Virus record (IMG/VR): IMGVR_UViG_3300036399_001256
Span: 1-59,688 of that record
From: a virus
Taxonomy: Duplodnaviria > Caudoviricetes
Direction: 5' to 3' (one strand)
Length of the DNA: 59,688 nt
The notes under the pieces are model-generated. The model had not been told where the DNA came from. It was given only the letters and a program-made list of their open reading frames with translations, and ran no database searches. A program made the position numbers and the translations under genes. Numbering within the stretch: the stretch's first letter is position 1; every line of letters starts with the position of its first letter. Below, one piece after another: positions 4,672-24,635 of this stretch.

Positions 4672-4712
4672 TGGTGTTTAAGGTTTGGAATAAAGCCGCG
4701 TGCGCGGTTGAA

Positions 4713-5087
4713 TCAGTGGTTCGACAAGGCATCACGCGCTATCCGCTTGATCTCATCGAAGCTGTCTTGAAGGATTCCAGTTGCCGCGTAGAACTCGATT
4801 TTCTCCATAGCCTCCCGCAGCTTTTCCGTTTCGCACGCGATCTTGAAGCACAGTCGCACGGCTACGTCTGACGCTTGCTCAGATGCGAAGACCTCACCGC
4901 TCGGCCTTGGATTCCAGCACATCGAGGCTCTTCCGATGGCCTCAAAGACTGCGTGATACATCTCGCTTGAGATGCGGTGGTTCAGTGGCCGCTCTTTTAG
5001 TGGGAGAGCCATCGCTTCGTCGTGAGACATGATCGTTGCCGTGAAGCATTTCGATCCGTCTGGTAGTTGTGTCATTGGTGTTTCCAT
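4713..5087 (-). CDS. Hypothetical cassette gene (cassette 4720-5177)
   Basis: 124-aa ORF bounded by GTTCGACAA (4719) and TTGTCGAAC (5093-5101). Confidence 0.75.
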   Translation of the reverse strand: METPMTQLPDGSKCFTATIMSHDEAMALPLKERPLNHRISSEMYHAVFEAIGRASMCWNPRPSGEVFASEQASDVAVRLCFKIACETEKLREAMEKIEFYAATGILQDSFDEIKRIARDALSNH

Positions 5088-5094
5088 AAGAATT

Positions 5095-5183
5095 GTCGAA
5101 CAAGGCGATGCACGAAATCGCCGGGATTGCTTTACTTGGAATCGCCGCCGTGCTCCGGCGATTCGTGATCTTGGGCGTTAGCC
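5095..5183 (+). other. attC-like site A
   Basis: GTCGAAC-AAGGC-GAT[G]CACGAA[A]TCGCCGG ... CCGGCGATTCGTGATC-TTGGGC-GTTAGCC, with two extrahelical bases. Confidence 0.85.
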
Positions 5184-5380
5184 TGAGAAAAATACTCCTC
5201 GCAGCATTTCCCGCAGACGGGCATTGCATACGGATCGGGGCTGAGTGTTCCGCCCTCGCTGTCGGGGTCGAACAGTTCTCCGCACGGGCATTTCATCCTG
5301 CCGTCAGGTTGGATCATTTCATCGTATGCGGCCTCGGCACGCATCTCGCCTCTTTCGATTGGGTCTGGTATGTAGGTCAT
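5132..5380 (-). CDS. Small Cys-rich cassette protein
   Basis: CPCG..VCGKCC; its stop lies inside attC A. Confidence 0.7.
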   Translation of the reverse strand: MTYIPDPIERGEMRAEAAYDEMIQPDGRMKCPCGELFDPDSEGGTLSPDPYAMPVCGKCCEEYFSQANAQDHESPEHGGDSK

Positions 5381-5391
5381 AAAATTAAGAA

Positions 5392-5493
5392 GGCTAACAA
5401 GGGAGTCATGGCAACGGGAACTAGCCGTTCAAGTCGGTGGTGGATTCGGGCTTCTGCGCGGCTAGTTCCCGCGCCATACCCCCAGCGTTCATA
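5392..5493 (+). other. attC-like site B
   Basis: GGCTAAC-AAGGG-AGT[C]ATGGCA[A]CGGGAACTAGCCG ... CGGCTAGTTCCCGCGCCATAC-CCCCAGC-GTTCATA. Confidence 0.85.
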
Positions 5494-5695
5494 ATTCGTC
5501 ATCATTTTCTTGATATGGAACAGCCCATGGATTCGGAGCGCCACGCCACCATCCGGGGCGATCTGGTCTCGCAAGCGAATGCCTCAATTCAATTCTGGTA
5601 ACGGCCTCCCGGTCGATCTCCTCGGGCGTCGGTGGGAGACGCAATCCGTCACGCGTGGTCGAGGTGTTATCCTGATCTGCTTGCATGACGTTCCG

Positions 5696-6076
5696 TCAGT
5701 GTTGTGGCTTTACTGCGTTTGGCGAGTCCCAAAGCCGATCCACCAAAGAAATCGCATCCTCGGTCGAGCGCACCACCCCGGCGATGCCGCCAGCGTTGGC
5801 CACAACTCCCAGAAACCGCTTCTGTCCATCGGTGGTCACCGCCTGATCCTTGACCTCGGCGGCGACGAACACGGCGATCTTCCGGCCGACGTCTTCGGGG
5901 CGAACGGTGTGACTGACCCAGCCGATGAGGTCGGAGGTGTCTTTTCCGAGTCCGGCTTTCACTTTGCGGGTGCCGTCGAGCGTGAGAAACAACCCGGTGT
6001 TGTTGCGGAGCCAGATCGCCCTCTCAGTGGCGGAAACCGCCAGTCGGATGTTGTTTTGGATGTTTGTCTCGCTCAT
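5696..6076 (-). CDS. VRR-NUC domain nuclease
   Basis: SETNIQNNI, TSDLIG, AAEVK, Q..FL..V...GG.AGVVRS..DA pattern. Confidence 0.88.
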   Translation of the reverse strand: MSETNIQNNIRLAVSATERAIWLRNNTGLFLTLDGTRKVKAGLGKDTSDLIGWVSHTVRPEDVGRKIAVFVAAEVKDQAVTTDGQKRFLGVVANAGGIAGVVRSTEDAISLVDRLWDSPNAVKPQH

Positions 6077-7452
6077 TTTATTTTGTGGGTGAATCGTCCT
6101 TTCCTAACATTCATTCGGACCCGCGCCCAGATTTCCGGCTTCGCGTATCCCCGTGAAATTCCAAGGCGGATGAAGTCCTCGACGGTCTTGCAATCTCGCT
6201 CCTCGATCTTCTTCCGTGCGGCGATGGCTTTGATTTCCTCAAGCTCGCCGGCGCGGATCTCCGCTCGCGATTTTGGCATGGCCGGATAGACCCATCCGCA
6301 GTAGGGGCAGGTTGGTGTCGGCTTGTGGGCGCGGTAGCACTCGGGGCACTCGCGAACCAGAATCTCACCCTCGCCCTTGTTCTTCGATTTCCGGCCGTCC
6401 AGCGTCCATTCGCGGGGGTCGTGGGCGAGTCCGTGCCGCTGGCAGTTGCCGACGTGGTCGAGGATGGTCGCATGGGTTTTGCCGTCGGCCTTGCGAAGCA
6501 CCCGCCCGACCTGCTGGAGAAACAAAATAAGACTCTCGGTGGGGCGCAGGAGTTGCGCCCCGGACACCACCGGAACATCCAGTCCCTCGCCGATCAGATC
6601 GCATGAGGTGATGATCTGCCACTTGCCCGTGCCAAGCCCCTCGATGCAGTCGTCACGCTCGGCGTCCTTCATCTTCCCGTCAACCGCCGCCGCCCGGTAT
6701 CCGGCCATCCGGTATTCGGCGGCAACGTCCTTCGCGTGCTGGACGGAAACGCAGAATGAGAGCATGGGTTGGCCATCGCAATACTTCTGGTAATGGCTGA
6801 CGGCGCATCCGGTGATGGTCGGTTTGTTCATCGCCGCCTCAAGCGCCGCCGTGTCGTAATCGCCGCGGATCTTCCGCACGCCCGTCATGTCGAGAGGGAC
6901 AGGCGGGGCGTAGTAGCGAGCCGGTGAGAGGTAGCCGTTTTCCGTAAGCCATCCAAGCGACGGACCCTCGATGAGTTCTTCGAACACATCACCCAGTCCG
7001 CGCCCGTCGAGGCGTTGAGGAGTGGCAGTGACGCCGATCACTCGCGCATCTGGGTAGGCATCGAGAACCTTGGTGTATTTGCTGGAAATCGCGTGGTGCG
7101 CTTCGTCGATGATGATGAGGTCGGGCGGAGGGATTTTTCCGACACGGCTCGGCAGGGAATCGATACTGCACACTTGGACCATGCAATCGGCATCCATGGG
7201 TTCGCCGGATCGGATGACGCCATGATAAACGCCGAATTGCGCGAGTGTCGCCCCGGCCTGCCGGGTGAGTTCCTTCCGGTGAGCGATGATCCAAACTCGA
7301 TTTCCCAGCGCCACCGCATTGCTCGCGATGTAGCTGAAAATCACCGTCTTCCCGCCACCAGTGGGCAGAACGATCACCACGCGCTTCCGCTTCCGCCGGA
7401 AAGCATCCCGCGTCCGGTTGGCAAGATCGTCCTGGTAGTCCCGCAGTTTCAT
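6073..7452 (-). CDS. SF2 DEAD/DEAH helicase with C-terminal Zn ribbon
   Basis: LRDYQ, PTGGGKT, DEAHH, TATP, EGLDVP, QQVGRVLR, CPEC..CPYCG; start set at MKLRDYQ. Confidence 0.92.
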   Translation of the reverse strand: MKLRDYQDDLANRTRDAFRRKRKRVVIVLPTGGGKTVIFSYIASNAVALGNRVWIIAHRKELTRQAGATLAQFGVYHGVIRSGEPMDADCMVQVCSIDSLPSRVGKIPPPDLIIIDEAHHAISSKYTKVLDAYPDARVIGVTATPQRLDGRGLGDVFEELIEGPSLGWLTENGYLSPARYYAPPVPLDMTGVRKIRGDYDTAALEAAMNKPTITGCAVSHYQKYCDGQPMLSFCVSVQHAKDVAAEYRMAGYRAAAVDGKMKDAERDDCIEGLGTGKWQIITSCDLIGEGLDVPVVSGAQLLRPTESLILFLQQVGRVLRKADGKTHATILDHVGNCQRHGLAHDPREWTLDGRKSKNKGEGEILVRECPECYRAHKPTPTCPYCGWVYPAMPKSRAEIRAGELEEIKAIAARKKIEERDCKTVEDFIRLGISRGYAKPEIWARVRMNVRKGRFTHKIK

Positions 7453-7613
7453 CTCAGCTTTTGGGTGAGGTGCCAGTTTCCGCAAATGTCGCACTGGTAG
7501 GTGAAGAGGCGTGGAACACTGGCGTCTTTGGATCGGCGGTTGATGATGACGCGCATCGCAGTTTGCTCGGATGGGTAGTCGCACTTCCTCGCGCATGCTT
7601 CCGCCCTTCGCAT
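7449..7613 (-). CDS. Small Zn-finger phage protein
   Basis: YQCDICGNWHLT motif; start uncertain. Confidence 0.55.
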   Translation of the reverse strand: MRRAEACARKCDYPSEQTAMRVIINRRSKDASVPRLFTYQCDICGNWHLTQKLR

Positions 7614-7642
7614 GTAGAGCACGTGTTCAACTTCACGTTTCG

Positions 7643-7918
7643 TCAGTTTGAAGTGCTGATCGCGCGGCTCTTGGGTGTGATTCCAGCTTTTGAAAATCGC
7701 CGATTCAAAGTTTTCAACAGCCTTGGATCTTGCTTCGGTGAGAGGTTGAGCATGGTTAGGAATCCGATGATCTCCTTGAGGTCGGTGATGGTGACCTTCT
7801 GGCGGAGGATTTCCTTTCGGAGTTTTGCGGTGGTGGCGAGGTGGCATTTCCGGTCTTTCTCTCGGGTTTCGCGGGATTTGGTGAGTCGTTTTTGGAGGGC
7901 GGTGATGGATAGGCGCAT
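7643..7918 (-). CDS. Hypothetical basic coiled-coil protein
   Basis: 91-aa ORF co-oriented with the operon. Confidence 0.5.
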   Translation of the reverse strand: MRLSITALQKRLTKSRETREKDRKCHLATTAKLRKEILRQKVTITDLKEIIGFLTMLNLSPKQDPRLLKTLNRRFSKAGITPKSRAISTSN

Positions 7919-7937
7919 TTTCTAGCAGAAAATTATG

Positions 7938-8375
7938 TTAACTGGGGTCCGGTGAATAAGCGTTCGGCAGACTAATTTTCTTCTCCCACCGACTCAGCGC
8001 GTGAGCGATGGCAATCATCTTGCTTGCCGCCGTTGCGGGAGACAGATCCTCAGTTTCCAGCGCACGGAAGGATGCACTGGTTCCGCACTGCCACTTCTCG
8101 CAGAGTGCGGCATGAGTCGAGAACTCAGGCGTTTTGACCTCCACCCCAAGCGATATGTGGACGGATCGCCCAGCATAGAATTTGAGGATTTCCATCAGGT
8201 CTTCGATGCCTTCAATATCGAATCCCGCCGCCGCGTCGTCTTCGTCGGCGTAGTATGATTCTCGGATTCTCTCATCGAGCTTCGGGTTGTCTCTCGCCTC
8301 CATTGGCCAGACTTCGCCGCTGTTTGACGAGTGGACGTTGAGTGAGAATTTTACAGTGGCTTGTTTGTGGTTCAT
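7938..8375 (-). CDS. Hypothetical cassette gene
   Basis: 145 aa; ends LPNAYSPDPS across the GTT at 7962. Confidence 0.7.
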   Translation of the reverse strand: MNHKQATVKFSLNVHSSNSGEVWPMEARDNPKLDERIRESYYADEDDAAAGFDIEGIEDLMEILKFYAGRSVHISLGVEVKTPEFSTHAALCEKWQCGTSASFRALETEDLSPATAASKMIAIAHALSRWEKKISLPNAYSPDPS

Positions 8376-8800
8376 GCGTTTGGGGTATCTAGGAATTTGA
8401 GGATGTCAGCGGCAGTTCCGCCCTTGGTGATGATTTCTCGGATGGTGTCGAAGTCCTGTCGTAGCAGTGCCACTTTGAGGGCTTCGATGTTGGCTTCGTT
8501 CTCGCACTTGGCGCGGAGGTCGCGGAGGCGTTCATTTTCGCGCACCAGCGTATTCACGGCAGCTTTCGCACCCTCCATGGCGAACAGATCGCTTCGCAGG
8601 TTCCATTTCCGCGCAGCTTCTTCTGCGGTGTGGCCATCCGGCCCGTAGGTGCGGCACTCTGGATTCGTGCATTCCACGGCAGCTTTCACGCCCGCCTTGA
8701 TTTCGATGTCGCTATGCACCAGTTCGGGAGCCCCTCCACAAAACGGGCAGCCGAACAAGGCATCGCTGCCAACCGGCATTTGCTTTTCAGTTTCACTCAT
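8372..8800 (-). CDS. Lar-family restriction-alleviation-like Zn-ribbon protein
   Basis: CPFCGG..VECTNPEC..AARKWNLR pattern; start codon lies in the loop of attC C. Confidence 0.75.
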   Translation of the reverse strand: MSETEKQMPVGSDALFGCPFCGGAPELVHSDIEIKAGVKAAVECTNPECRTYGPDGHTAEEAARKWNLRSDLFAMEGAKAAVNTLVRENERLRDLRAKCENEANIEALKVALLRQDFDTIREIITKGGTAADILKFLDTPNA

Positions 8801-8844
8801 GGTCGTTTTATTTGCTGCCGGTGGCAGGATTTGTTTCGTTCTCC
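8750..8844 (+). other. attC-like site C
   Basis: GCCGAAC-AAGGC-ATC[G]CTGCC[A]ACCGGCA ... TGCCGGTGGCAGGAT-TTGTTTC-GTTCTCC. Confidence 0.85.
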
Positions 8845-8851
8845 CGAAATG

Positions 8852-9031
8852 TCATTGACCCTCCGGCCATTTCACTGCGTCCATTTTCCCAGTGAACACC
8901 GCCCACGCTTCCCGGAGCTTTTCGCGGAGCGAGCGGCAGGTGTGATTGATCGGACGGGCAGGAACCCATTTGCCGTTGATTTCCGCCTTCGTGCTGGCGG
9001 CGGCTTCGAGGATGTCTTTGAGGTGATACAT
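8852..9031 (-). CDS. 59-aa cassette protein (below the ORF-track cutoff)
   Basis: Translated by hand: MYHLKDILEAAASTKAEINGKWVPARPINHTCRSLREKLREAWAVFTGKMDAVKWPEGQ; fills cassette 8839-9146. Confidence 0.75.
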   Translation of the reverse strand: MYHLKDILEAAASTKAEINGKWVPARPINHTCRSLREKLREAWAVFTGKMDAVKWPEGQ

Positions 9032-9063
9032 TGTTTTTCGTGTTATTGGAGATTCAAAAAAAG

Positions 9064-9152
9064 GGAGAACAAGGCGTGCGAGCTAACCGCCGGGACGCGC
9101 CTTGTTGAATTCAAGCTACCCATTCGGCGGTAGCTCCACATCGACGTTCGGC
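9064..9152 (+). other. attC-like site D
   Basis: GGAGAAC-AAGGC-GTG[C]GAGCT[A]ACCGCCG ... CGGCGGTAGCTCCAC-ATCGAC-GTTCGGC; bottom-strand extrahelical G and T as in canonical attC. Confidence 0.88.
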
Positions 9153-9186
9153 AGAGAAGGGATCAGACCTTCCCCGCCTTGGTTGG

Positions 9187-9405
9187 TTACTCGGCGTGCG
9201 CGAATTGCTGGCCCGCACGTTCAAGCCGCTTTCCGAGGATTTGGACGTATTCGCTCATCACCCGTTGCTGGGAGTAGAGCAGGTCCTTGTCTTCGCGTGG
9301 CAGCTTCGGGAATGCCGGATCGGCCATGAACGTATTGAGTTTGTTCAGGCGTCCAGCGGTTTCTTGCGTCTCAGTGAGGAGACGGGCTCTTTGTTCTTCG
9401 TTCAT
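9187..9405 (-). CDS. crAss001_48-like small phage protein
   Basis: R+..E..E...RL.KL..F.....F..L...+..LL..Q...M..Y..IL..R pattern. Confidence 0.7.
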   Translation of the reverse strand: MNEEQRARLLTETQETAGRLNKLNTFMADPAFPKLPREDKDLLYSQQRVMSEYVQILGKRLERAGQQFAHAE

Positions 9406-9436
9406 ATTTCGTTGGTGTTTCCGGCATCAACCCCCA

Positions 9437-9526
9437 GCCGAACAAGGCGTGGGTGGTCAACCGCCGGGAAAGTTTTATTTGGAATCGGGGTCTTGGGGCG
9501 GCGGTGCCACCACTTTGACGTTGTGT
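9437..9526 (+). other. attC-like site E
   Basis: GCCGAAC-AAGGC-GTG[G]GTGG[T]C[A]ACCGCCG ... CGGCGGTGCCACCAC-TTTGAC-GTTGTGT. Confidence 0.85.
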
Positions 9527-9840
9527 GGAATTGGAGGAATCGGCATCCACCCTTTGAGATCGCGGTTGTCTTCCGTCTCGAACTCCCACCAGCAATCGTG
9601 GACTTCCGTGCTGGTCACGGTTTCCGCACTCGCGTTGTAAGTGGCAACTGCCCAGGTGCAGCTCATCCGCGACCATGCAGCAGGGACTAGCCACGGCCAT
9701 CCGAAGTCGGCGAGGATCATTGTGCCGTCGTGCGGAGCTGTCTCCGCGTCCAACAAAGACACACAACAAGGCGGCGCAGATCGACCCCCACTAGCTTTCT
9801 TGTTTGCGGGACGTTTTGGCTTCGATGGTGTTTTTTTCAT
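9475..9840 (-). CDS. DUF551-like cassette protein
   Basis: ETAPHDGTMIL..GWMPIPP pattern; starts in attC F and stops in attC E. Confidence 0.65.
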   Translation of the reverse strand: MKKTPSKPKRPANKKASGGRSAPPCCVSLLDAETAPHDGTMILADFGWPWLVPAAWSRMSCTWAVATYNASAETVTSTEVHDCWWEFETEDNRDLKGWMPIPPIPHNVKVVAPPPQDPDSK

Positions 9841-9896
9841 ATGCGGAGATTTAGGGCTTTGGGGCCGTTGGGGTCGTCTGGCCTTGGACGTTCTCC
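9761..9896 (+). other. attC-like site F
   Basis: ACACAAC-AAGGC-GGC[G]CAGA[T]CGACCCC ... GGGGTCGTCTGGCC-TTGGAC-GTTCTCC. Confidence 0.8.
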
Positions 9897-10252
9897 GAAA
9901 GAAATGCGCGGGCGGTGTCGCCCATGAATTTCCAATCCTCGTAGGTGTCGCAGCCGTCGATGTATCGTTCTTCGATGACCATCAGCACAGCAATGGCCGC
10001 ATCCCGTTCGCGCTCCATCTTTTTCGAGTGGTCAGACATTGCGTAAGCGTATGCCGAGATCGGGACCCGTGAATCATGCATGCCGTCTGGTGTGCGTGAT
10101 ACAGCGTCCCACGCTTCGTTGCTCTCCGGCGTCGAAGACGAAGAACAAGCCGCCGCATCCGATGGGAATAAGCTTTCCAGTTGCTTGCCGCAATAGTGGC
10201 AGGCCGTTTCGGACGATTTGAACGTCACTTTGCAGGTAGGGCATGTTTTCAT
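9851..10252 (-). CDS. Hypothetical cassette protein with N-terminal Zn ribbon
   Basis: CPTC..CHYCG encoded within the loop of attC G; ends SENVQG.. inside attC F. Confidence 0.7.
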   Translation of the reverse strand: MKTCPTCKVTFKSSETACHYCGKQLESLFPSDAAACSSSSTPESNEAWDAVSRTPDGMHDSRVPISAYAYAMSDHSKKMERERDAAIAVLMVIEERYIDGCDTYEDWKFMGDTARAFLSENVQGQTTPTAPKP

Positions 10253-10295
10253 TTAGTTTTTCATTGGCTCCCACGGGAGCGTTTAGACGTTATGG
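10140..10295 (+). other. attC-like site G (imperfect stem, long loop)
   Basis: GAAGAAC-AAGCC-GCCGCATCCG[A]TGGGA ... TCCCACGGGAGCGT-TTAGAC-GTTATGG. Confidence 0.65.
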
Positions 10296-11093
10296 GGATG
10301 ACTCAATCCAATAACCTTTGTCGTATTTCCAGAGCGTGAAGCACGCCATGAACGCGGCGAGCGCCTGCTCGTAATTGTCCCAAATCTTCGGCTGGATCGG
10401 TCCCGGCGCGTCGCTTGGGATGAGTAGAGAAACCAGCAGGGGCCGTTCCTCTTCCGGCTCGGTGATGCACTCGGCGTAGGCGGCGAGCTGCATCGCCCAT
10501 TCCAGATAGAACACGCCATTGCGCTTCCCTTTCAGTCGTTGGGACTTCGCATCGACGATTGCCCGCCGTGCTCGTCCTTCGTGGTTGATCATGGCGTAGA
10601 TGTCGAGCCTCCCAGCGTATCCCTTACTGCTCACGCATGACTGTTCGGCGGAAATCACCTCGATCACGTTGTCCCGATACCACTGCTCGTATCCGGCGAC
10701 GTATTGCAGGATCTCGCTGGTGCCGGAGAACACCTTGTTGACGTTGTAGTGCTCGATCTGCTCATGCAGGAGCGTGCCCCACTCGGCGGCTTTGCGGGTC
10801 TCCTCCTCGGATGCTTCGGCGATGCGGGAGGCGAACATTTCGTCAGTCTCGCCACCCATGCGCTCCAGTTGGATAGCGGCCAAGATCGCCTTGTCGAGTT
10901 TCCACACGTCGAGCGCGGGCTTGGCCTTCATGCCAAGGATGTTCGTCACCGATGGCACCAGGTTCATTTTCTTAGCGTCGGTGACCGTGGTGGGTCGTGG
11001 GAGTCCCGTGGTTTTCCCCATGACGGTATGGCAGGGGTCGCCGTTGCGGTGATACCAATGAGAGTCACGCTCGCGTCGTTTGATGAGGGCCAT
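10290..11093 (-). CDS. PD-(D/E)XK exonuclease-like recombination nuclease
   Basis: PSVTNIL, GTLLHE, GYAGRLD, IVDAKS, QLAAY; start set at MALIKRR. Confidence 0.85.
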   Translation of the reverse strand: MALIKRRERDSHWYHRNGDPCHTVMGKTTGLPRPTTVTDAKKMNLVPSVTNILGMKAKPALDVWKLDKAILAAIQLERMGGETDEMFASRIAEASEEETRKAAEWGTLLHEQIEHYNVNKVFSGTSEILQYVAGYEQWYRDNVIEVISAEQSCVSSKGYAGRLDIYAMINHEGRARRAIVDAKSQRLKGKRNGVFYLEWAMQLAAYAECITEPEEERPLLVSLLIPSDAPGPIQPKIWDNYEQALAAFMACFTLWKYDKGYWIESSP

Positions 11094-11098
11094 GATCG

Positions 11099-11743: not shown

Positions 11744-11785
11744 GGGGCACCAGCAGGCGGGGCTGATTCGGGAGTTCCAATTGGA

Positions 11786-13063: not shown

Positions 13064-13150
13064 GACTGTGGTGGTATTGGTTGGTTGGAGAATTGCCAGG
13101 AGCGGCATGATTGCTGGCTGGGCGGTGCCGCTCCCGGTCGGGGACAAAAA

Positions 13151-13717: not shown

Positions 13718-13815
13718 GGGCGTGGTTCGGACTTTTGTATGGGGTGCGGAGCGGTGTTTTCACCCGTCCCGGGGTGTGGTTCCCAACCCGCACCGCTCCG
13801 CGTTTTTGCTGGGAG

Positions 13816-14145: not shown

Positions 14146-14157
14146 GATGGGCGCGAG

Positions 14158-14682: not shown

Positions 14683-14686
14683 GGGA

Positions 14687-15502
14687 TTAGAATTTGAGGA
14701 TTTTGCCAGCGACGATGTCGCGGGGGGATTTTTCGATGGAGCCGATGTAAACCGGCACGTTTTCAAGATTCGCTTCGAGGGCGGTGATGAGGTTGTCGAA
14801 CGCCTTGTCTTCGACTTTCTCGGAGTGGAGGATCTTCGTCTCGAACGTGAGACGCCCATCGTTGATCCGATAGCGAAGCAGCACCGTGAGTTCAAACGTG
14901 GTTTGATCTTCCGATCCTCGGAACACCGGGATGTGGATGACGAGTTGGGATGGCACTTTCGTTTCACCGCCCGCACCAGCCTTCGCTTCGGTGGTTTCTT
15001 CCCATGCAATCTGCCGGTCGCCGTTGGCGAGGCTTTGCACCGATTTGAACACCGTGTTGCGCTTGCCTTGGAGGCTGGTTGCGATGGTGAGAACGTCCGC
15101 AGCGGCTGGCGACTTGATGTTTTCCAGATGCTCCTCGATGAACTCAATAAATGAGGTTTGAGAGAGGGGTTTCTGGTCGATGCCCATCCAGTCGCGCCAT
15201 TCCCTCGTGTGGCGGAGTTGATAGGTGGCGGAGTGGTCGCCCCATTGAGCATCGAACGGATCAGCGGCGTGCCAGTTCATTACCGTTTGGATGCGGCGTT
15301 TATCGGGGTCGGCAAAAACCACCGCACTTTCGTTGTGCTGGTTCAAATAATCGGTTAGAGCACCGATGGTATCGAGTTTGAGCGTGGCGTATTTGCGCCC
15401 GGGCGAGTCGGCGTCAAAATCATCCGGGATCATGGAGTGACCCGATGGGATGACACACTTCTTGGTTGGTAGCCGCAGAGCGGCGAGGATTTCCGGAATC
15501 AT
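14687..15502 (-). CDS. DUF2303 (YfdQ-like) protein
   Basis: WGDHSATY..EW..W..LSQTSFIEFIEE..IPVF..LRYR pattern. Confidence 0.85.
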   Translation of the reverse strand: MIPEILAALRLPTKKCVIPSGHSMIPDDFDADSPGRKYATLKLDTIGALTDYLNQHNESAVVFADPDKRRIQTVMNWHAADPFDAQWGDHSATYQLRHTREWRDWMGIDQKPLSQTSFIEFIEEHLENIKSPAAADVLTIATSLQGKRNTVFKSVQSLANGDRQIAWEETTEAKAGAGGETKVPSQLVIHIPVFRGSEDQTTFELTVLLRYRINDGRLTFETKILHSEKVEDKAFDNLITALEANLENVPVYIGSIEKSPRDIVAGKILKF

Positions 15503-15532
15503 GGTATTGGTTGTGAGATTGGGGTTGGGAGA

Positions 15533-15898
15533 TTATTCGCCGACGGCGGGTTTGTTCACGGCCTTGGGCTCACCAAACGGGAGTTTCATTTGCCGGGGGT
15601 TGTCCTTCACCAGATGCCCGTCTTCGGTGACGAAGAACATATTGGGCGCGGTGTCGGGATAGAGCGGAGTCGTGGAGACTTTACCGGAAACCTCGACTTG
15701 GCCGGCGTCGCGGCCGCGGGGCTTCACTTCGATGGTGAGGGTGAGCTTCCCGGTTTTGCCGGTTTGCTCGACATCTTTGACGAGCCTGGTCATGGCTTCG
15801 CTCGCCTGATCGGCAAGGTCACCTTGTGAAATCGCGTTCAGGGCGTACGCGAACGCATTGGAGGGCATTTCTGCTTCTTTTTCTTCTTCGGCTAACAT
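15533..15898 (-). CDS. YfdP-like partner of DUF2303
   Basis: TGKTGKLTLTIEVKP..FF..DG.L..DNPRQMKL; adjacent to the DUF2303 gene. Confidence 0.75.
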   Translation of the reverse strand: MLAEEEKEAEMPSNAFAYALNAISQGDLADQASEAMTRLVKDVEQTGKTGKLTLTIEVKPRGRDAGQVEVSGKVSTTPLYPDTAPNMFFVTEDGHLVKDNPRQMKLPFGEPKAVNKPAVGE

Positions 15899-15901
15899 GG
15901 C

Positions 15902-16858
15902 TTATTCGGTTGGGGATTCGTCTGTGGGGGTGGCTTTGAAGGCGGCGATGGCTTCGAGGAAACCATCCTTGCGGGTGAGGATCTGCTTGCGCTTCGCGGC
16001 AAGCAGATCGCGGAGAGTTTGGCCAGGGCGGAGCCATTCGATGGAGACGAGGTAGTCGATGGCATCTTGTTGGATGTCGCCAAACAGCTTCTCAATTTCG
16101 TCCTCCGTGGGAGCGGCGACGGGATTGAACTTCGCGGCTTCGGCGGCGAACGCATCCCACGAAAGATCCATCTCGAAAGGCAGCGGGATTCGGCGCTTGG
16201 CGAGGAATGCAGGACGCTCTTCGGTGTAAAGGACGCGCACACCCTCACCGCGAGCCTTGGCTTTGCGGGCGTTTTTCTCTTTGAGGAGATCCACCTTGTA
16301 TCCGGCAAAGAACATATGATCGACAGCCTCATGAAAGAGCAGCGCCGCCTTATCATTCATCTTGAGCGAAAAGCGGTCGTATCGCTCGCCTTGGAAAATA
16401 TCATCCACGGTTTTCATTTGGGCGTGACCCAAACAGATGACGTTCATGGTCGAGCGCAGGCGCTTGAGGGTTGACCAGAATTCCACCCACTCCTCGCATG
16501 CGATGACATATCCCTTGCCGAAACCGCCGCCGACTTCCTCGATGGATTTGGCGTTGTTCTCTTTGCAGACGTGAGCCCAAACCAGCGGTTCAAGGCCGTT
16601 GATGGTGTCGATCACCAGTGATTTGAAGTCATGCTTCTCAAACATGAGTTCGTTGATGGCCTGCTTCACTTCGGCCCATGTTTTCGGGGTCGGGAAGCTG
16701 GCAACGTCGAGACTTCCAACGCCGTCGTCGGTGCCGAGGAAGATCGGATTTGGAGCGGCTGCACCGAACGTGGATTTACCAACACCACCGGGACCGTAGA
16801 GACCGAGAAAATGAGGGCGAAGCTGGGGACCTTTGTGGACTTTAGAGAGTAGTGACAT
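15902..16858 (-). CDS. Sak4-like AAA ATPase (AAA_24 recombinase)
   Basis: LYGPGGVGKST, LVIDT, GFGKGY, ICLGH. Confidence 0.85.
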   Translation of the reverse strand: MSLLSKVHKGPQLRPHFLGLYGPGGVGKSTFGAAAPNPIFLGTDDGVGSLDVASFPTPKTWAEVKQAINELMFEKHDFKSLVIDTINGLEPLVWAHVCKENNAKSIEEVGGGFGKGYVIACEEWVEFWSTLKRLRSTMNVICLGHAQMKTVDDIFQGERYDRFSLKMNDKAALLFHEAVDHMFFAGYKVDLLKEKNARKAKARGEGVRVLYTEERPAFLAKRRIPLPFEMDLSWDAFAAEAAKFNPVAAPTEDEIEKLFGDIQQDAIDYLVSIEWLRPGQTLRDLLAAKRKQILTRKDGFLEAIAAFKATPTDESPTE

Positions 16859-16859
16859 A

Positions 16860-17105
16860 TCAGTGGAATTCGTAGGTTTCTTCCTTCATCGCCAGCGTGC
16901 TCAGGCGTGCGGTTTCCTTGGCCGCATGGATCAGCAGGAGGATGAAGGTGATAAGGGAGACAACGCATCCACCGAGCGACAAGGTGTCTTGGTTCTTGAA
17001 TGCGGCGATGGAGAAGCCTCCGGCGGAGACTGCGAGGAAAAGCCAGATGAGGCTTTGCCAGAGTTTGGCGCGTGACTGCGCCCATAGGATTTCTGAACGT
17101 TTCAT
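16860..17105 (-). CDS. Small two-TM membrane protein
   Basis: Two hydrophobic segments. Confidence 0.6.
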   Translation of the reverse strand: MKRSEILWAQSRAKLWQSLIWLFLAVSAGGFSIAAFKNQDTLSLGGCVVSLITFILLLIHAAKETARLSTLAMKEETYEFH

Positions 17106-17112
17106 GATGTTG

Positions 17113-17436
17113 TTAGGATTTCTTCACCGCGCCTCTACGGGTCGATTTTAAAGACACAGCAAGGCATTGTTTTTCGCGGTCGCCACCCGCGCGCTTGAGG
17201 GCGATGAAGTCTTTCAGGTCGCTCAGCCGGTAGCGAATGACGGTCGGTGAGAACACGACCTTGGGAACACCGATGGAATCGAGCGTCTTGATGTTGCAGT
17301 CGATCAGTCCGGCGGCTTGCGATGGGCTGACCAATTCCAGATCATCGCCATACTCGGCGATAAGAGCACGGACAGCGTCGGCGCGGATCGAGTCGATGAG
17401 GGCTTGGCGCTCCTCGCTGGTCAGAATCAGGTCCAT
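17113..17436 (-). CDS. Excisionase-like winged HTH protein
   Basis: LVSPSQAAGLIDCNIKTL..IRYRLSDLKDFI pattern. Confidence 0.7.
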   Translation of the reverse strand: MDLILTSEERQALIDSIRADAVRALIAEYGDDLELVSPSQAAGLIDCNIKTLDSIGVPKVVFSPTVIRYRLSDLKDFIALKRAGGDREKQCLAVSLKSTRRGAVKKS

Positions 17437-17438
17437 GC

Positions 17439-17645
17439 TCAGTGTGCGGGCTCAAGTTTGGGGCCGGAGAATTTCGCTTCGCCGCTCTTGAGGCGCTCGA
17501 TGCCGTCGAGAAGGAGGACTCGGGCGAGGTTGGATTCAGTGGTTCCGTTGTCGCGGGCGAGCTTTCCGAGTTCGCTCTTGGCGGGTCCGATGGGGACATT
17601 TACGCGACCCTCGGCGTTTTTGGCTGGTCGTTTCGGCTTGGGCAT
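17439..17645 (-). CDS. Cro-position regulator (possible ribbon-helix-helix)
   Basis: RVNVPI strand followed by two helices; first gene of the lytic arm, divergent from the repressor. Confidence 0.6.
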   Translation of the reverse strand: MPKPKRPAKNAEGRVNVPIGPAKSELGKLARDNGTTESNLARVLLLDGIERLKSGEAKFSGPKLEPAH

Positions 17646-17656
17646 GGCGGGAAACT

Positions 17657-17726
17657 GTTTCCAAATTTGGAAACTGCCAAGGAAAAAGTTTCCAAAAATG
17701 GAAAATGAATGTTACCCATTGGAAAT
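17657..17726. promoter_or_regulatory. Immunity operators between the divergent regulators
   Basis: Perfect palindrome GTTTCCAAATTTGGAAAC (17657-17674), near copy TTTCCAAAAATGGAAA (17689-17704), degenerate third copy overlapping the repressor ATG. Confidence 0.8.
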
Positions 17727-18180
17727 GAATACCTACCCAGTCACGGAATCCATGCGCCAGATCACTTTGCAGGCGATGCGCCAACGGAAAATGAACAAGA
17801 CCGACCTCGCCACCGCCATTGAACTTGGCAAGGCATGGGTGACAAAGTTTTTGGATGGTTCGATGAAGACGATGAGGGAGCGAACGATGTTTGATTTGCA
17901 GGATCTACTAGGAATCCAGTATTTCACTATTGAAAAGGCAGTTGGCGACCGTTCGCCCCTTGCAAACAAGCTCGCAGCCGCGATTGACTCCGATCCTCAG
18001 TTCGCGAAACTCACCACCGCATTGCATGAGGTTCTGCTAGAAGCACGCGCTACTTACACCCCTCGTTTCGTGCCAACAAAGGAGATGTCGGCGCTGGGAA
18101 AAAAGATCATCGCCATCGCCTCAGAGAATCCAGAAAAACCCGGCAAGGTCGCCCGCCTGGTTCTTGAATTACTGGCATGA
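17725..18180 (+). CDS. CI-like HTH repressor without a peptidase domain
   Basis: MRQRKMNKTDLATAIELGKAWVTKFLDG HTH; start reassigned to 17725. Confidence 0.75.
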   Translation: MNTYPVTESMRQITLQAMRQRKMNKTDLATAIELGKAWVTKFLDGSMKTMRERTMFDLQDLLGIQYFTIEKAVGDRSPLANKLAAAIDSDPQFAKLTTALHEVLLEARATYTPRFVPTKEMSALGKKIIAIASENPEKPGKVARLVLELLA

Positions 18181-18254
18181 TCGCAGACTGATCACAACGG
18201 CAATGATCGCCACCACCACCAGATTTCACGCCACCCAATCCCCGCTGAATCGTC

Positions 18255-18446
18255 TCACTCGTAAACCCTTCCCCTGTTGTCGAATGAGTAGTCCCGATCA
18301 TCCTCCACCGGCTCAGTTTTCTCGATCACTTCCGGCGGGGCGTCCAGCCATGCCACCACCGCCGACACCAGCCCCCACACACCGACGATTCCAAGCGCGG
18401 CGAAAAACGCCGCGATGACCATCTGTCGCCGGAAACTGATCCCCAT
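18255..18446 (-). CDS. Small single-TM protein
   Basis: Hydrophobic stretch VIAAFFAALGIVGVWGLVSAVVAWL; start uncertain. Confidence 0.45.
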   Translation of the reverse strand: MGISFRRQMVIAAFFAALGIVGVWGLVSAVVAWLDAPPEVIEKTEPVEDDRDYSFDNRGRVYE

Positions 18447-18460
18447 ACCGCTACTCCACC

Positions 18461-19681
18461 ATGCCCCGCCCTGCCCCGTCAACCACCACCGTGCGCGTCC
18501 GCTCGGTGTCGTTGAGCATCTACCCGCTCGCCGCCCGCCCCGGGTATTTCCAGTTTCAGTATCGCGACCTCGACGGGAAGACGAAGAAAATCACCCGCTC
18601 CAACCTCCCAGCGGCGAAGCAGGCGGCGAGTGATGTCGCCATCCGCATCCACAACGGGGCGGTCAGCATCGAGGATCTCACGCCCGACCAACTCCGCATC
18701 GTGCGGCGGCTCCTGGACGTCGATCCATCGCTGGCGGAGGTGGATGAGTTTCTCGCGTGGCGGCACCGTGCGCGGCCGGTGACGCCGACGGCGGATGTGA
18801 TCGCCGGATTCCTCGACGCAAAGCGCACAAGCGCCGGGAGGTCGCCACACAACCTCCGCACGCTGGAGCGCCACCTTGGGATTCTGGATGGGCTGGGGAA
18901 TCGCCCGCTATCCTCCCTCGTCGTCGGCGACATTGCCGCGCTCCTCGCCGGGAAATCACCGCGGACTCGCCGGAACACCCGGGCGTCGTGGGTGACGCTG
19001 TGGCGGTGGGCCCGTCGCAACGGGCATCTCCCGGATGATTCGACGATGACGGCACCGGAGCGCATCGAGCGCCCGTCGATAGATCGACCGATCCCCACCA
19101 CCTACGAGCCGGAGGAGTTGCGGGCCCTACTCCGCGAGGTTTCGCCGAAATACCTGCCATGGCTCGCACTGGCCGCGTTTGCGGGGATTCGCACGGAAGA
19201 GGTGTGCCCGGACCGGCACGGCACCAAATCGCCGTTGGATTGGGCGGATTTTCATTGGGACCGGAAGTTGATCATCATCCGGCCGGAAACCGCGAAGATG
19301 AAGCATCGGCGGGTCGTGCCGATTCTGCCGGCGCTCGAAGCATGGTTGTCACCGTTGCGGCAGGACTCCGGACCGGTCGGCCCCACGCTTCCCCCGCACC
19401 AGCCCGCCGCCGGGGGGCGGGAGTCTGAGACGACGCGACTCGGGGGATTCATCGGGGGGTGGAAGCGAAACGCTCTCCGGCACTCGTTCATTTCCTACCG
19501 GGCGGCGCTGGTGGGGCTGGCGCAGACGGCGATGGAGGCGGGGAACTCGGAGAGTGAATCGAGGAAAAGCTACAACGACGCCAAGGGGGCGGACGTGGCG
19601 GGGGAGTGGTTTGGGGTGTTTCCGCAAAGTTTCCGCGATTCTTCACCGCCTCGCGATCCGCCTCCATCCGTGGAACACTGA
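18461..19681 (+). CDS. int: Phage tyrosine integrase (not IntI)
   Basis: GIRTEE (R), ETAKMK (K), NALRHSFISY, GNS, RKSY (Y); N-terminal arm-binding region; no IntI-specific insertion. Confidence 0.92.
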   Translation: MPRPAPSTTTVRVRSVSLSIYPLAARPGYFQFQYRDLDGKTKKITRSNLPAAKQAASDVAIRIHNGAVSIEDLTPDQLRIVRRLLDVDPSLAEVDEFLAWRHRARPVTPTADVIAGFLDAKRTSAGRSPHNLRTLERHLGILDGLGNRPLSSLVVGDIAALLAGKSPRTRRNTRASWVTLWRWARRNGHLPDDSTMTAPERIERPSIDRPIPTTYEPEELRALLREVSPKYLPWLALAAFAGIRTEEVCPDRHGTKSPLDWADFHWDRKLIIIRPETAKMKHRRVVPILPALEAWLSPLRQDSGPVGPTLPPHQPAAGGRESETTRLGGFIGGWKRNALRHSFISYRAALVGLAQTAMEAGNSESESRKSYNDAKGADVAGEWFGVFPQSFRDSSPPRDPPPSVEH

Positions 19682-19811
19682 AAACCCTCGTTTTCAAGGA
19701 TTTCGGGTCGCAACGCCCCGCCATGATCCGCCCGATTCATGGTTCGAATCCCTCCCTGTCCGCTGTTGGTTGTAGGTGTTCCACGGCGTGTTTCCGTAAA
19801 GTTTCCGTGAT
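19616..19811 (+). other. attP: tRNA 3'-end core with flanking arm-type repeats
   Basis: Core GGTTCGAATCCCTCCCTGTCCGC (19741-19763); 24-bp direct repeats at 19616 and 19788; 11-bp inverted repeats at 19668 and 19776. Confidence 0.85.
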
Positions 19812-20071
19812 CAAGAGGCAATACCCACGTTCGGCGGAAGAATGGCATTCAGGACGGCGCGGACAGTTCGGATTTCCTGCGCGGTGAGTTCGCCGCAGCG
19901 GAGTCGCAGACCCTCGTCGGACTGTGAACGCCAGTCGATAACTCTGCGTTGGGTCTGCATGGACTCAGCCATCAAAGCCTCTCGGCAGTCGCAAGCGAAG
20001 TGGTGCGCCACGCAACGCCGAACAAAGCGGTCGAGGTCAACGGGCGGGGCGGTGTGTGTCGGAGTTTCCAT
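19811..20071 (-). CDS. Hypothetical cassette gene
   Basis: CVAHHFACDCRE and LRLRCGELTAQEIRTVRAVL motifs; starts in the loop of attC H. Confidence 0.7.
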   Translation of the reverse strand: METPTHTAPPVDLDRFVRRCVAHHFACDCREALMAESMQTQRRVIDWRSQSDEGLRLRCGELTAQEIRTVRAVLNAILPPNVGIAS

Positions 20072-20139
20072 GTAGTTAGAGAGTTTTGGGAGGTAGCGGA
20101 GTGGCGTTGTCCGCCCGTGCCTCACCTATTGCGTTCGGT
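20017..20139 (+). other. attC-like site H
   Basis: GCCGAAC-AAAGC-GGT[C]GAGG[T]C[A]ACGGGCGG ... CCGCCCGTGCCTCACC-TATTGC-GTTCGGT. Confidence 0.85.
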
Positions 20140-20435
20140 GGAGATAATTTAAGACCGCACCAAGGGCAGAATCCCATGGGTGGGAGGTCGCATCCGACTT
20201 TCCACGATCCATTCCATTCGCGGATCAATGCGCCATAACCTTCATTATCTGTGCAGGGTTGTTTCGCGTCGCGGAATGGGAGGCATTCGCAGCTTGGTTG
20301 TTTTTCAAGCCATCGCCCGCAGACGGATCGGTATTGGTTGCCATGCCATCCTTTTCGGTCATTCAGATACTTTATCAGGCTTGGTGCGCTCATATCTGAT
20401 GCTTTTTGCTTATTTGATGCTTTTAGGTCATTCAT
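20076..20435 (-). CDS. Cys-rich cassette protein
   Basis: FCPWCGLKL near the C-terminus; stops inside attC H. Confidence 0.65.
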   Translation of the reverse strand: MNDLKASNKQKASDMSAPSLIKYLNDRKGWHGNQYRSVCGRWLEKQPSCECLPFRDAKQPCTDNEGYGALIREWNGSWKVGCDLPPMGFCPWCGLKLSPPNAIGEARADNATPLPPKTL

Positions 20436-20674
20436 ACTCTACTCGATTTAGGGTGTCTTCCTGTTTTCCATTCTTCGCGCCCGACGATTCGATGATCGTG
20501 GACGCGGTGTTGATATTCTCCGCACTTGATACACACCTCTTCGCTTGGTGATCCAAATCCGTTTATTGCGGTTATTGACCAGTCGTGACGGCATTCGCGC
20601 AACCACCGAACAATAGCCTGCATGGAACGCCGAGGAAGCGTTCTGGCAGGGCGTAGTTTTAGGGCGGCGTCCAT
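20432..20674 (-). CDS. Small Zn-binding cassette protein
   Basis: CRHDW..CIKCG; start codon lies in the right arm of attC I. Confidence 0.65.
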   Translation of the reverse strand: MDAALKLRPARTLPRRSMQAIVRWLRECRHDWSITAINGFGSPSEEVCIKCGEYQHRVHDHRIVGREEWKTGRHPKSSRV

Positions 20675-20691
20675 GAGGCTAGGCGTTCAAA
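20605..20691 (+). other. attC-like site I
   Basis: ACCGAAC-AATAG-CCT[G]CATGG[A]ACGCC ... GGCGTCCATGAGG-CTAGGC-GTTCAAA. Confidence 0.85.
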
Positions 20692-24624: not shown

Positions 24625-24635
24625 GCACCCCCAAA

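What the first reader, a model, noticed from the sequence alone, without database searches (positions are those of the whole stretch)
4719..20691. Phage carries nine integron-type attC cassettes in three arrays but no IntI
Seen: nine co-oriented hairpins (5095, 5392, 8750, 9064, 9437, 9761, 10140, 20017, 20605) with the layout NNNNAAC, 5-nt spacer (usually AAGGC), left arm carrying extra bases, variable loop, right arm, 6-7-nt spacer, GTT. Each R'' is complementary to the R' at the start of its own cassette, mostly not to the R' of the same hairpin: TTGTCGAAC/GTTCGACAA, AGGCTAAC/GTTAGCCT, GCCGAAC/GTTCGGC twice, GGGAGAAC/GTTCTCCC, CACACAAC/GTTGTGTG, CGAAGAAC/GTTCTCCG (one mismatch), CGCCGAAC/GTTCGGCG, CCACCGAAC/GTTCGGTGG. 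Established: this is the footprint of circular cassettes integrated at G/TT by an integron integrase, and to my knowledge integrons are regarded as essentially absent from phages. Seen: the phage integrase lacks the IntI insertion, and the cargo is phage-type (Lar-like, crAss001_48-like, DUF551-like, Zn ribbons). Inference: the phage diversifies its early accessory genes through a cassette pool recombined by a host IntI.
Basis: partly seen in the sequence, partly recalled or inferred. Interest (0 to 1): 0.93.

Follow-up and report, generated by a model that had tools for sequence, protein, structure and literature searches.

The report
Back-to-front integron cassettes in a phage
A complete lake-water phage keeps nine small early genes in genuine integron-type swappable cassettes, built back to front compared with bacterial ones, and wild variants of the phage lack whole cassettes cut exactly at the predicted sites.

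Summary
A covariance model built only from phage sites finds 3 of 3 true class 1 attCs, in gene orientation. R''/R' complementarity runs cassette by cassette and beats every permutation.

Contigs from two other lake metagenomes lack cassette 4720-5177 and cassettes 9147-9890, cut exactly at the predicted G|TT points.

The window has no IntI. The same attC type lies beside a bona fide IntI in a MAG titled Akkermansiaceae. It was found in 98 of 151 genomes of that family, and IntI in 69 of 151. Recombination by a host IntI in trans is therefore plausible but remains inferred.

One feature I did not find in print. The genes lie on the strand opposite to the attC top strand in 30 of 30 well-scored phage intervals, against 1 of 53 in bacterial arrays. 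Most read through the crossover in frame.

Earlier notes of this scan report reversed phage arrays on other DNA.

The parts
4719..4727 (+). Lone R' box (GTT plus 6 nt) at the head of array 1, with no hairpin to its left. G4719|T4720 is the left crossover of cassette 1.
   Evidence: It is the 9-nt perfect complement of R'' of site A. The X3 contig joins 4718 to 5177 with 3 ambiguous letters.
4720..5177 (+). Cassette 1: ORF 4713-5087 on the - strand (124 aa, no family) plus attC A.
   Evidence: Absent, to the base (458 nt), from a 789-nt contig of run X3 with 0 mismatches.
5095..5183 (+). attC A
   Evidence: R2 85 bits. The layout can be read.
5178..5487 (+). Cassette 2: ORF 5132-5380 on the - strand (82 aa) plus attC B.
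   Evidence: R'' AGGCTAAC is complementary to GTTAGCCT at 5177. Codon score 12.9.
5392..5493 (+). attC B, the last site of array 1.
   Evidence: R2 34 bits, E 4.3e-7; not in the training set. Bottom-strand fold z = -3.51.
7963..8838 (+). Cassette 3 (left end tentative): ORFs 7938-8375 and 8372-8800 (Lar-like) on the - strand, plus attC C.
   Evidence: Lar_restr_allev E 1.5e-7; phrog_599 E 6.5e-11. The lone GTTCGGC at 7962 matches R'' of C only as a 7-mer of the consensus type.
8750..8844 (+). attC C
   Evidence: R1, built without it, scores 35.6 bits, E 5.6e-8. R2 69.6 bits.
8839..9146 (+). Cassette 4: ORF 8852-9031 on the - strand (59 aa, phrog_21988) plus attC D.
   Evidence: phrog_21988 E 8e-22 over the full length. 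R'' GGGAGAAC is complementary to GTTCTCCC.
9064..9152 (+). attC D
   Evidence: R2 78.7 bits. The opposite strand scores only 15.3 bits with R1.
9147..9520 (+). Cassette 5: ORF 9187-9405 on the - strand (crAss001_48-like) plus attC E.
   Evidence: PF21825 E 4.8e-15. Missing, together with cassette 6, from a contig of run X5.
9437..9526 (+). attC E
   Evidence: R2 82 bits. 96% identical over 75 nt to a site in locus L007, with unrelated flanks.
9521..9890 (+). Cassette 6: ORF 9475-9840 on the - strand (121 aa; weak coding score) plus attC F.
   Evidence: The X5 contig (645 nt, 0 mismatches) joins 9142 to 9887 with 7 ambiguous letters. That equals removal of 9147-9890.
9761..9896 (+). attC F (long loop)
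   Evidence: R2 45.1 bits, E 3.1e-10; not in the training set.
9891..10289 (+). Cassette 7: ORF 9851-10252 on the - strand (133 aa, zinc-ribbon-like N-terminus) plus attC G.
   Evidence: R'' CGAAGAAC against GTTCTCCG has one mismatch.
10140..10295 (+). attC G, a degenerate site at the end of array 2.
   Evidence: R2 25.6 bits, E 1e-4. The stem is imperfect.
18461..19681 (+). Tyrosine integrase of the phage. It is not an IntI.
   Evidence: phrog_1 E 3.4e-19. No Pfam or NCBIfam match. No similarity to the IntI of L070.
19829..19836 (+). Lone R' box at the head of array 3.
   Evidence: GTTCGGCG is complementary to R'' of H.
19830..20133 (+). Cassette 8: ORF 19811-20125 on the - strand, plus attC H.
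20017..20139 (+). attC H
   Evidence: R2 66.3 bits.
20134..20685 (+). Cassette 9: ORFs 20076-20435 and 20432-20674 on the - strand, plus attC I.
   Evidence: R'' CCACCGAAC is complementary to GTTCGGTGG.
20605..20691 (+). attC I
   Evidence: R2 46.3 bits. Bottom-strand fold z = -2.51.

Best explanation
The nine hairpins are true integron-type attC sites. They divide three stretches of the phage's leftward early/replication operon into nine cassettes.

Each cassette is a unit that a tyrosine recombinase of the integron-integrase kind can excise or insert by crossing over at G|TT, using the folded bottom strand of attC. New units enter either at a resident attC or at the bare GTT site that heads each array.

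The phage has no such enzyme. The most likely source is the IntI of its host, probably a member of the family of genome G016, whose record title says Akkermansiaceae. That family's chromosomal integrons use the same attC type.

Unlike bacterial cassettes, the phage cassettes carry their gene on the bottom strand, so the attC lies ahead of the gene and the recombinogenic strand is the mRNA-like strand. The gene usually reads through the crossover (AAC read as Asn) and stops inside the neighbouring attC.

Shown: site identity, cassette structure, gain or loss at G|TT in nature, absence of intI, the reversed polarity, and the shared attC type with that bacterial family. Inferred: which enzyme acts, that it acts during infection, and what the reversal is for.
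For: 1. Architecture and covariation. Across 41 phage sites, AAC and GTT are invariant in 41 of 41, 94.4% of cells are paired, and 16 of 19 pairs show compensatory changes. None of 500 shuffles reached any of the five measures.

2. Cross-detection. Model R2, built only from phage sites, finds attC of dfrA14 (32.5 bits), aadA5 (27.2) and dfrA17 (24.2). Each lies directly downstream of its annotated gene and in its orientation. That is 3 of 3, with no other hit below E 0.1 in 25.9 kb.

3. Cassette-wise R''/R' complementarity: 38 of 50 adjacent pairs are perfect, against 5.1% background; 0 of 20,000 permutations reach the observed mean.

4. Natural variants. An X3 contig lacks exactly 458 nt, equal to cassette 1. 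An X5 contig lacks exactly 744 nt, equal to cassettes 5 and 6. Both have 0 mismatches, the breakpoints fall within the shared GTT or GACGTTC, and the runs come from different studies.

5. A related phage contig (G061:C172; capsid 69%, primase 49% identical) has no site at E <= 0.1 in the 60,000 of its 63,387 bases searched. Its helicase and primase genes lie close together.

6. Enzyme availability. An IntI scoring 379 bits (cut-off 265) lies directly beside four sites of this type in the MAG locus L070. R2 hits at E <= 1e-5 occur in 98 of 151 genomes of that family, and IntI over cut-off in 69 of 151 against 0 of 14 control genomes. In a control family, only 12 of 101 genomes had R2 hits, best score 56 bits.

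7. Polarity. The best-scoring ORF between sites lies on the strand opposite the attC top strand in 53 of 55 phage intervals, and in 30 of the 30 with score > 5. In bacterial arrays of the family it lies on the same strand in 69 of 72 intervals, and in 52 of the 53 with score > 5. Pfam or PHROG hits confirm three - strand genes in the window.
Against: - No recombinase was tested and no IntI is present in the window.
- Each variant joint rests on one low-depth assembled contig (depths 4.6 and 6), not on raw reads. No excised circle was sought.
- R2 descends from a pattern taken from the window, so the set of phage sites is biased towards this subtype.
- The IntegronFinder and HattCI models were not available.
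- Folding energies are not exceptional: z = -0.12 and -0.71 for F and E.
- The coding-strand test is a home-made codon score, and one ORF of L039 was counted for two intervals.
- The host family rests on attC type, one record title and one binned phage-like contig. Only one other family was used as a control.
- Homologues of the 59-aa cassette protein in 14 other viral loci have a site within 2.5 kb in only 1 of 14. This gene is therefore mostly not a cassette elsewhere.
- G013, a phage record, has an IntI-like gene of its own (226 bits, below cut-off), so the enzyme need not be the host's.
Confidence: 0.8

Rival explanations
1. The cassettes are moved by a phage-borne enzyme rather than by the host's IntI. 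Candidates are the window's own 406-aa tyrosine integrase beside array 3, its serine recombinase-like gene, or an IntI-like enzyme supplied by a co-infecting or resident phage such as G013.
For: - G013 is a phage (TerL gpA, lambda-type portal, PF00589 integrase). It carries an IntI-like gene (TIGR02249, 226 bits; 39% identical to IntI1) 1.3 to 2.5 kb from three sites of this type, whose genes are also reversed.
- The window's integrase lies about 150 nt from the head of array 3.
Against: - Only 1 of 15 array-bearing viral records searched has an IntI-like gene.
- The window's integrase has no IntI family match and no similarity to IntI.
- The site architecture is the one that IntI recognises, and the host family is rich in IntI.
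Confidence: 0.12
2. The arrays are dead relics: pieces of a bacterial integron picked up by illegitimate recombination and no longer recombined in the phage.
For: The window has no IntI. Site G is degenerate. Qi et al. 2023 discuss illegitimate capture as one route (section 3.4).
Against: - The cargo is phage-type.
- The gene polarity is the opposite of that in bacterial arrays of the same attC type: 30 of 30 against 1 of 53.
- In-frame read-through occurs at 55 of 69 sites.
- There are three separate arrays.
- Wild variants differ by whole cassettes at G|TT.
Confidence: 0.05
3. The hairpins are RNA-level signals of the early operon (processing, termination or translational coupling sites) that only resemble attC. 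The deletions arose by slippage.
For: The bottom strand is the mRNA-like strand. Gene stops and starts often lie in the hairpin loops. attC sites are said to act as weak terminators (Qi et al. 2023, section 3.4).
Against: - An RNA signal gives no reason for R'' to match the R' on the far side of the gene.
- It gives no reason for the same model to find class 1 attCs or arrays beside IntI.
- It does not explain deletions ending in 3 and 7 nt of shared sequence exactly at the predicted crossover.
- A second role at the RNA level is not excluded.
Confidence: 0.03

Closest known systems
[quoted passage not shown]
   Same: Co-oriented attC sites bound small accessory genes in a phage that has no intI. 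The published idea is that phages gain access to cassettes, including anti-restriction functions. R2 also finds two sites in their Tetrasphaera phage TJE1 (26.4 and 18.2 bits).
   Different: - In TJE1 the two sites lie at the 3' ends of orf1 and orf2 on the same strand, which is the canonical polarity. Here every supported gene is on the opposite strand.
- This phage has nine sites in three arrays, against a published criterion of at least two per CALIN.
- The attC type here can be tied to one bacterial family.
- Natural excision or insertion variants were seen here.
Chromosomal integrons of the family of G016 (record title: Akkermansiaceae), with intI on the same strand as attC (the 'inverted integrase' layout named in PMC13323075, passage read)
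   Same: The same attC subtype, with R2 scores up to 73 bits, as high as for the phage sites. The cassette-wise R''/R' complementarity is also the same.
   Different: In the bacteria, intI is adjacent, the genes lie on the attC top strand upstream of their site (52 of 53), and arrays are long (at least 107 hits in G061). In the phage there is no intI, the genes are reversed, and each array starts at a bare GTT.
attC sites of class 1 mobile integrons (dfrA14, dfrA17, aadA5 cassettes)
   Same: The same fold plan: R''-AAC, a 5-nt spacer, a 3 bp + 6 bp stem with two extra bases on the R'' arm, a 6-nt spacer, then GTT. The phage-built model detects them.
   Different: Lower scores (24-33 bits against 45-85 for most phage sites). 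The genes are co-directional with attC. They are expressed from Pc next to intI1.
IntI-mediated insertion of cassettes at non-att genomic sites (bioRxiv 10.1101/2022.09.11.507474; abstract seen in the search listing only)
   Same: Arrays 1 and 3 begin at a bare GTT with no hairpin. The X3 variant shows that cassette 1 is present or absent at such a site.
   Different: That work concerns bacterial genomes. Use of such sites in a phage is inferred here, not shown.

Membership tests
Integron attC recombination site | Outer R''/R' boxes with conserved AAC ... GTT cores | tested here: met
   AAC and GTT are invariant in 41 of 41 aligned phage sites. All nine window sites have them.
Integron attC recombination site | An imperfect hairpin whose structure is conserved while its sequence varies, with extra-helical bases on the R''-L'' arm and unpaired spacers of about 5 and 6 nt | tested here: met
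   The layout can be read. 16 of 19 pairs show compensatory changes and 94.4% of cells are paired. That the positions of the extra bases equal those of the paradigm attC of aadA7 is recalled from memory and comes from no call.
Integron attC recombination site | Recognition by a covariance model that also recognises accepted attC sites | tested here: met
   R2 finds 3 of 3 class 1 attCs in the correct orientation and arrays beside IntI. This is my own model, not the curated one.
Integron attC recombination site | Detection by IntegronFinder's attC model or by HattCI | not testable with these tools
   Neither program nor its model was available. Rfam at gathering threshold returned only a tRNA.
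Integron attC recombination site | Recombination by an integron integrase at G|TT on the folded bottom strand | not testable with these tools
   Indirect evidence only: two natural variants break at the predicted G|TT.
Integron gene cassette | R'' of a cassette is complementary to the R' remnant at the cassette's other end, not to the R' of the same integrated site | tested here: met
   38 of 50 adjacent pairs are perfect, and the mean same-site match is 1.8 of 4. In the window, 5 of 6 are perfect and one is 3 of 4.
Integron gene cassette | Usual polarity: a promoterless gene on the attC top strand, with the attC at its 3' end | tested here: not met
   Genes lie on the opposite strand in 30 of 30 well-scored phage intervals. 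Bacterial arrays of the same type show the usual polarity in 52 of 53.
CALIN (cluster of attC sites lacking an integron integrase) | Two or more co-oriented attC sites close together with no intI nearby | tested here: met
   Three clusters of 2, 5 and 2 sites, all on the + strand. No TIGR02249 match in the whole record.
Complete integron | intI gene with attI and a promoter next to the array | tested here: not met
   No IntI. The only tyrosine integrase is not of the IntI family. attI and Pc were not searched for.

The most novel reading that the evidence does not exclude
Phages of this bacterial family keep a cassette pool of their own. It uses the host's attC type, and so the host's integrase, but is built back to front: the gene lies on the recombinogenic strand, is translated through the crossover as Asn, and is terminated inside the next attC. 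This would be a mirror image of the host's integron. The reversal either keeps phage and host cassette pools functionally apart, or places the recombinogenic strand on the non-template strand of a heavily transcribed early operon so that it folds during the short infection. On this reading the same host enzyme that shuffles bacterial cassettes also shuffles the phage's early accessory genes, such as the Lar-like anti-restriction gene.
Probability: 0.45. Interest if true: 0.88.

Novelty: new variant of a known kind. Interest (0 to 1): 0.72.

Why it matters
Integrons are viewed as bacterial devices, and recent work shows that their cassettes often hold anti-phage defences. Three consequences would follow if phages maintain a parallel cassette pool shuffled by the host's own integrase.

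- Both sides of the arms race would draw on one recombination system.
- Phage early-gene diversity would have a defined, testable mechanism.
- attC type would become a practical clue to the host of uncultured phages.

The reversed polarity, with translation running through the crossover, is a design rule that current integron finders and cassette catalogues do not expect. Such arrays may therefore be under-counted or mis-annotated.

Tried and rejected
- Rfam at gathering threshold found only a tRNA.
- blastn of 4600-11200 against the phage collection gave only two 105-nt helicase matches. No close cultured relative was available.
- Relatives found through the helicase are only 33-36% identical and had no R1 hit at E <= 1.
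- Automatic choice of the GTT partner by lowest energy picked wrong partners for several sites. The sites were therefore defined by eye and then by the models.
- MAFFT of eight sites misaligned the loops. R1 was built from four sites of equal length instead.
- blastn and tblastn of the window's early region against the fetched viral loci showed that only the attC sites are shared (73.8-96% identity over 73-96 nt). No cassette gene is shared. Transfer of one and the same cassette between phages was therefore not shown.
- Homologues of the 59-aa cassette protein: 21 proteins. Of 14 viral loci encoding relatives, only 1 has an R2 hit within 2.5 kb.
- 14 of the 15 genome contigs pattern matches were chance.
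- L049, a record of nearly the window's length, showed no similarity in the regions compared.
- PDB sequence search with the 406-aa integrase gave nothing meaningful.
- Literature searches found no paper describing reversed gene polarity in phage cassette arrays or this attC type in Verrucomicrobia phages.
- Many of the other joints and loose ends have short sides or high depth, or come from other elements. They were not interpreted.

Full report
WHAT THE WINDOW IS. The window is a whole IMG/VR virus record of 59,688 bases with 127-nt direct terminal repeats, rated 100% complete. Positions 2.5 to 23 kb form one leftward (- strand) early/replication arm. It encodes:
- an AAA_25 primase/helicase-like protein, 2545-4671;
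- a weak VRR-NUC match, 5696-6076;
- a ResIII/DEAD helicase, 6073-7596;
- a weak PD-(D/E)XK match, 10290-11129;
- AAA_23, an RNase_T exonuclease, DUF2303 and AAA_24 proteins.

A capsid-like gene (52239-53702), a terminase-like gene (26676-28457) and a 5,359-aa ORF lie on the + strand. The only + strand gene inside the leftward arm is a 406-aa tyrosine integrase (phrog_1, E 3.4e-19).

Reading the sequence shows, at each of the nine coordinates, the layout NNNNAAC, a 5-nt spacer, 3 bp, one extra base, 6 bp, an extra A, a stem, a variable loop, the return arm, a 6-7 nt spacer, then GTT.

A first covariance model, built from sites A, D, E and I only, found C at 35.6 bits (E 5.6e-8). It scored the opposite strand of D at only 15.3 bits against 83.8, so the sites have a polarity.

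A second model, R2, was built from 41 sites of the window and of other viral contigs. It finds all nine sites and nothing else in the window at E <= 0.05. B (34 bits), F (45.1) and G (25.6) were not in its training set. G is degenerate.

Across the 41 sites, AAC and GTT never vary, 94.4% of cells are paired, and 16 of 19 pairs show changes on both sides. No shuffle or slid register comes close.

Folding energy is the weak point. The attC-type hairpin is the minimum-energy or centroid fold in most sites, but z-scores range only from -0.12 to -3.51.

THE SITES ARE attC SITES. R2 contains no bacterial sequence. In two class 1 integrons fetched from plasmid records it found the attC of dfrA14 (32.5 bits), aadA5 (27.2) and dfrA17 (24.2). 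Each lies immediately downstream of its annotated gene and in the gene's orientation, and no other hit fell below E 0.1. This fixes the + strand of the window as the integron 'top' strand.

The cassette signature also holds. In 38 of 50 adjacent site pairs of phage arrays, the four variable bases of R'' of one site are perfectly complementary to R' of the previous site, against 5.1% for non-adjacent pairs. Same-site R''/R' match on average in 1.8 of 4 bases. None of 20,000 permutations reached the observed mean. In the window, five of six adjacent pairs are perfect and F/G has one mismatch. Arrays 1 and 3 start at bare GTT boxes (4719, 19829) that complement the first R''. The proposed start of array 2 at 7962 is only a 7-mer of the commonest type and remains tentative.

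CASSETTES COME AND GO AT G|TT IN NATURE. The stretch 4600-10400 occurs in 20 listed runs from 17 studies. By their labels 16 are lake-water, one is freshwater, one is aquatic and two are unspecified metagenomes. I laid the contigs of four of these runs on 2500-21500.
- A 789-nt contig of X3 (0 mismatches) covers 4560-4718 and then 5177-5806. The 458 nt skipped, with three ambiguous letters (GTT), are exactly cassette 1 (4720-5177).
- A 645-nt contig of X5 (0 mismatches) covers 8917-9142 and then 9887-10305. The 744 nt skipped, with seven ambiguous letters (GACGTTC), equal 9147-9890. That is cassettes 5 and 6, as expected for a crossover between attC D and attC F.
- Other contigs match single attC sites and then diverge right after the GTT of B, C and H.

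The caveat is that each joint is one low-depth assembled contig.

A related phage-like contig binned in a genome of the candidate host family has no site in the 60,000 of its 63,387 bases searched (capsid 69%, primase 49% identical). Its helicase and primase genes lie close together. The arrays are therefore accessory insertions in a conserved backbone.

WHERE THE ENZYME MAY COME FROM. The window has no IntI. Its own integrase matches no IntI family and shows no similarity to an IntI.

A pattern scan of 185,579 species genomes gave 15 matches. Only one was real: a MAG titled Akkermansiaceae, with four sites of this type directly downstream of an IntI scoring 379 bits against a cut-off of 265.
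- In a sample of that genome's family, R2 hits at E <= 1e-5 occur in 98 of 151 genomes, with scores up to 73 bits. One genome has at least 107 hits.
- IntI over cut-off occurs in 69 of 151 of those genomes, against 0 of 14 control genomes.
- In a control family, 12 of 101 genomes had hits, the best at 56 bits. Five unrelated genomes had none.

The host IntI is thus plausible and available, but this remains an inference. One array-bearing viral record of the 15 searched (G013) is a temperate-looking phage. It has a terminase, a portal, an ordinary integrase and, 1.3 to 2.5 kb from three sites of this type, an IntI-like gene. That gene scores 226 bits (below cut-off) and is 39% identical to IntI1 and 35% to the MAG's IntI.

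THE PHENOMENON IS NOT CONFINED TO THIS PHAGE. A narrow pattern scan of viral contigs plus the models found arrays in 15 further viral records. These include records with terminal repeats or rated 100% complete, with 2 to 9 hits per record.

WHAT IS UNUSUAL. In the class 1 controls, in Tetrasphaera phage TJE1 (a published phage CALIN) and in bacterial arrays of the candidate host family, genes lie on the attC top strand with the site at their 3' end. In the bacterial arrays this holds for 69 of 72 intervals, and for 52 of the 53 with codon score > 5.

In the phage arrays the best-scoring ORF lies on the opposite strand in 53 of 55 intervals, and in all 30 with score > 5. The Lar-like, phrog_21988 and crAss001_48-like genes of the window confirm this by homology.

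At 55 of the 69 phage sites with GTT in the expected place (72 examined), a bottom-strand ORF of at least 40 aa reads the crossover triplet AAC as a codon and stops inside that attC, 1 to 24 codons later. Only 5 such ORFs use the other two frames. Some of these ORFs are not the real gene: at site C, the PHROG-supported gene stops before the crossover.

The phage cassettes are therefore not simply borrowed bacterial cassettes. They are a separate set with their own coding rules that shares the attC type.

Two explanations for the reversal are possible, and both are inference.
- The reversal may insulate the two pools: a cassette of one kind would be antisense, and so silent, in the other kind's array.
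- It may place the recombinogenic strand on the non-template strand of the early operon.

WHAT IS KNOWN. Qi et al. 2023 (PMC9892861; abstract and sections 2.1 and 3.4 read) found 17 CALINs and 21 phages with integron parts in 10,705 phage genomes. They showed that IntI1 recombines 5 of 6 phage attCs, and proposed that phages gain anti-restriction genes this way. My searches found nothing on reversed polarity, on the in-frame crossover, or on this attC type in phages. Earlier notes of this scan report reversed phage arrays on other DNA. I did not check those notes.

VERDICT. I class it as a new variant of a known kind, with interest 0.72.

Noticed in passing
window 4713-21419 and phage loci L047, L082, L039 and others: Bottom-strand genes read the crossover AAC as an in-frame Asn codon and stop 1-24 codons later inside the neighbouring attC (55 of 69 sites). 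In L047, successive ORFs overlap by 4 nt inside the attC loops. A cassette swap would therefore change each protein's C-terminal tail.
   Followed up: partly
L059 4041-5039 (G013:C1:34041-35039), with sites at L059 1497-2742: A phage record with terminase, portal and an ordinary integrase also carries an IntI-like gene (TIGR02249, 226 bits, below cut-off) next to three attC sites of the same type with reversed genes. A roughly 30-nt sequence recurs just after two of these sites (near L059 1610 and 2735).
   Followed up: partly
G061 (many small contigs, e.g. L102, L103, L104): One genome of the candidate host family has at least 107 R2 hits out of 150 candidates scored. This is a very large, fragmented chromosomal cassette array of the same attC type.
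   Followed up: partly
window 5454-5490, 8748-8841, 20096-20138 (run X2): Contigs with depths around 288-690, far above the phage's own depth, match only single attC sites and diverge right after the GTT. Other abundant elements in the same lake therefore carry near-identical attC sites.
   Followed up: no
window 31348-47427: A single open frame of 5,359 aa (27% of the genome) with a very high coding score.
   Followed up: no
window 24243-25265: The ORF matches serine recombinase/DNA invertase families (phrog_125, E 2.9e-32). The codon-score gene map splits this region differently. A tRNA lies just downstream (25321-25395).
   Followed up: no
window 4672-4718: On the - strand, a short G+C-rich hairpin followed by a T-rich run lies between the head of array 1 and the start of the primase gene, like an intrinsic terminator. 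In attC terms the head of the array is thus the promoter-distal end of the transcription unit.
   Followed up: no
L098-L100 (G061:C172, 63,387 bases): A phage-like contig related to the window (capsid and a 593-aa protein 69% identical, primase 49%) sits in a genome bin of the candidate host family and has no attC sites.
   Followed up: partly
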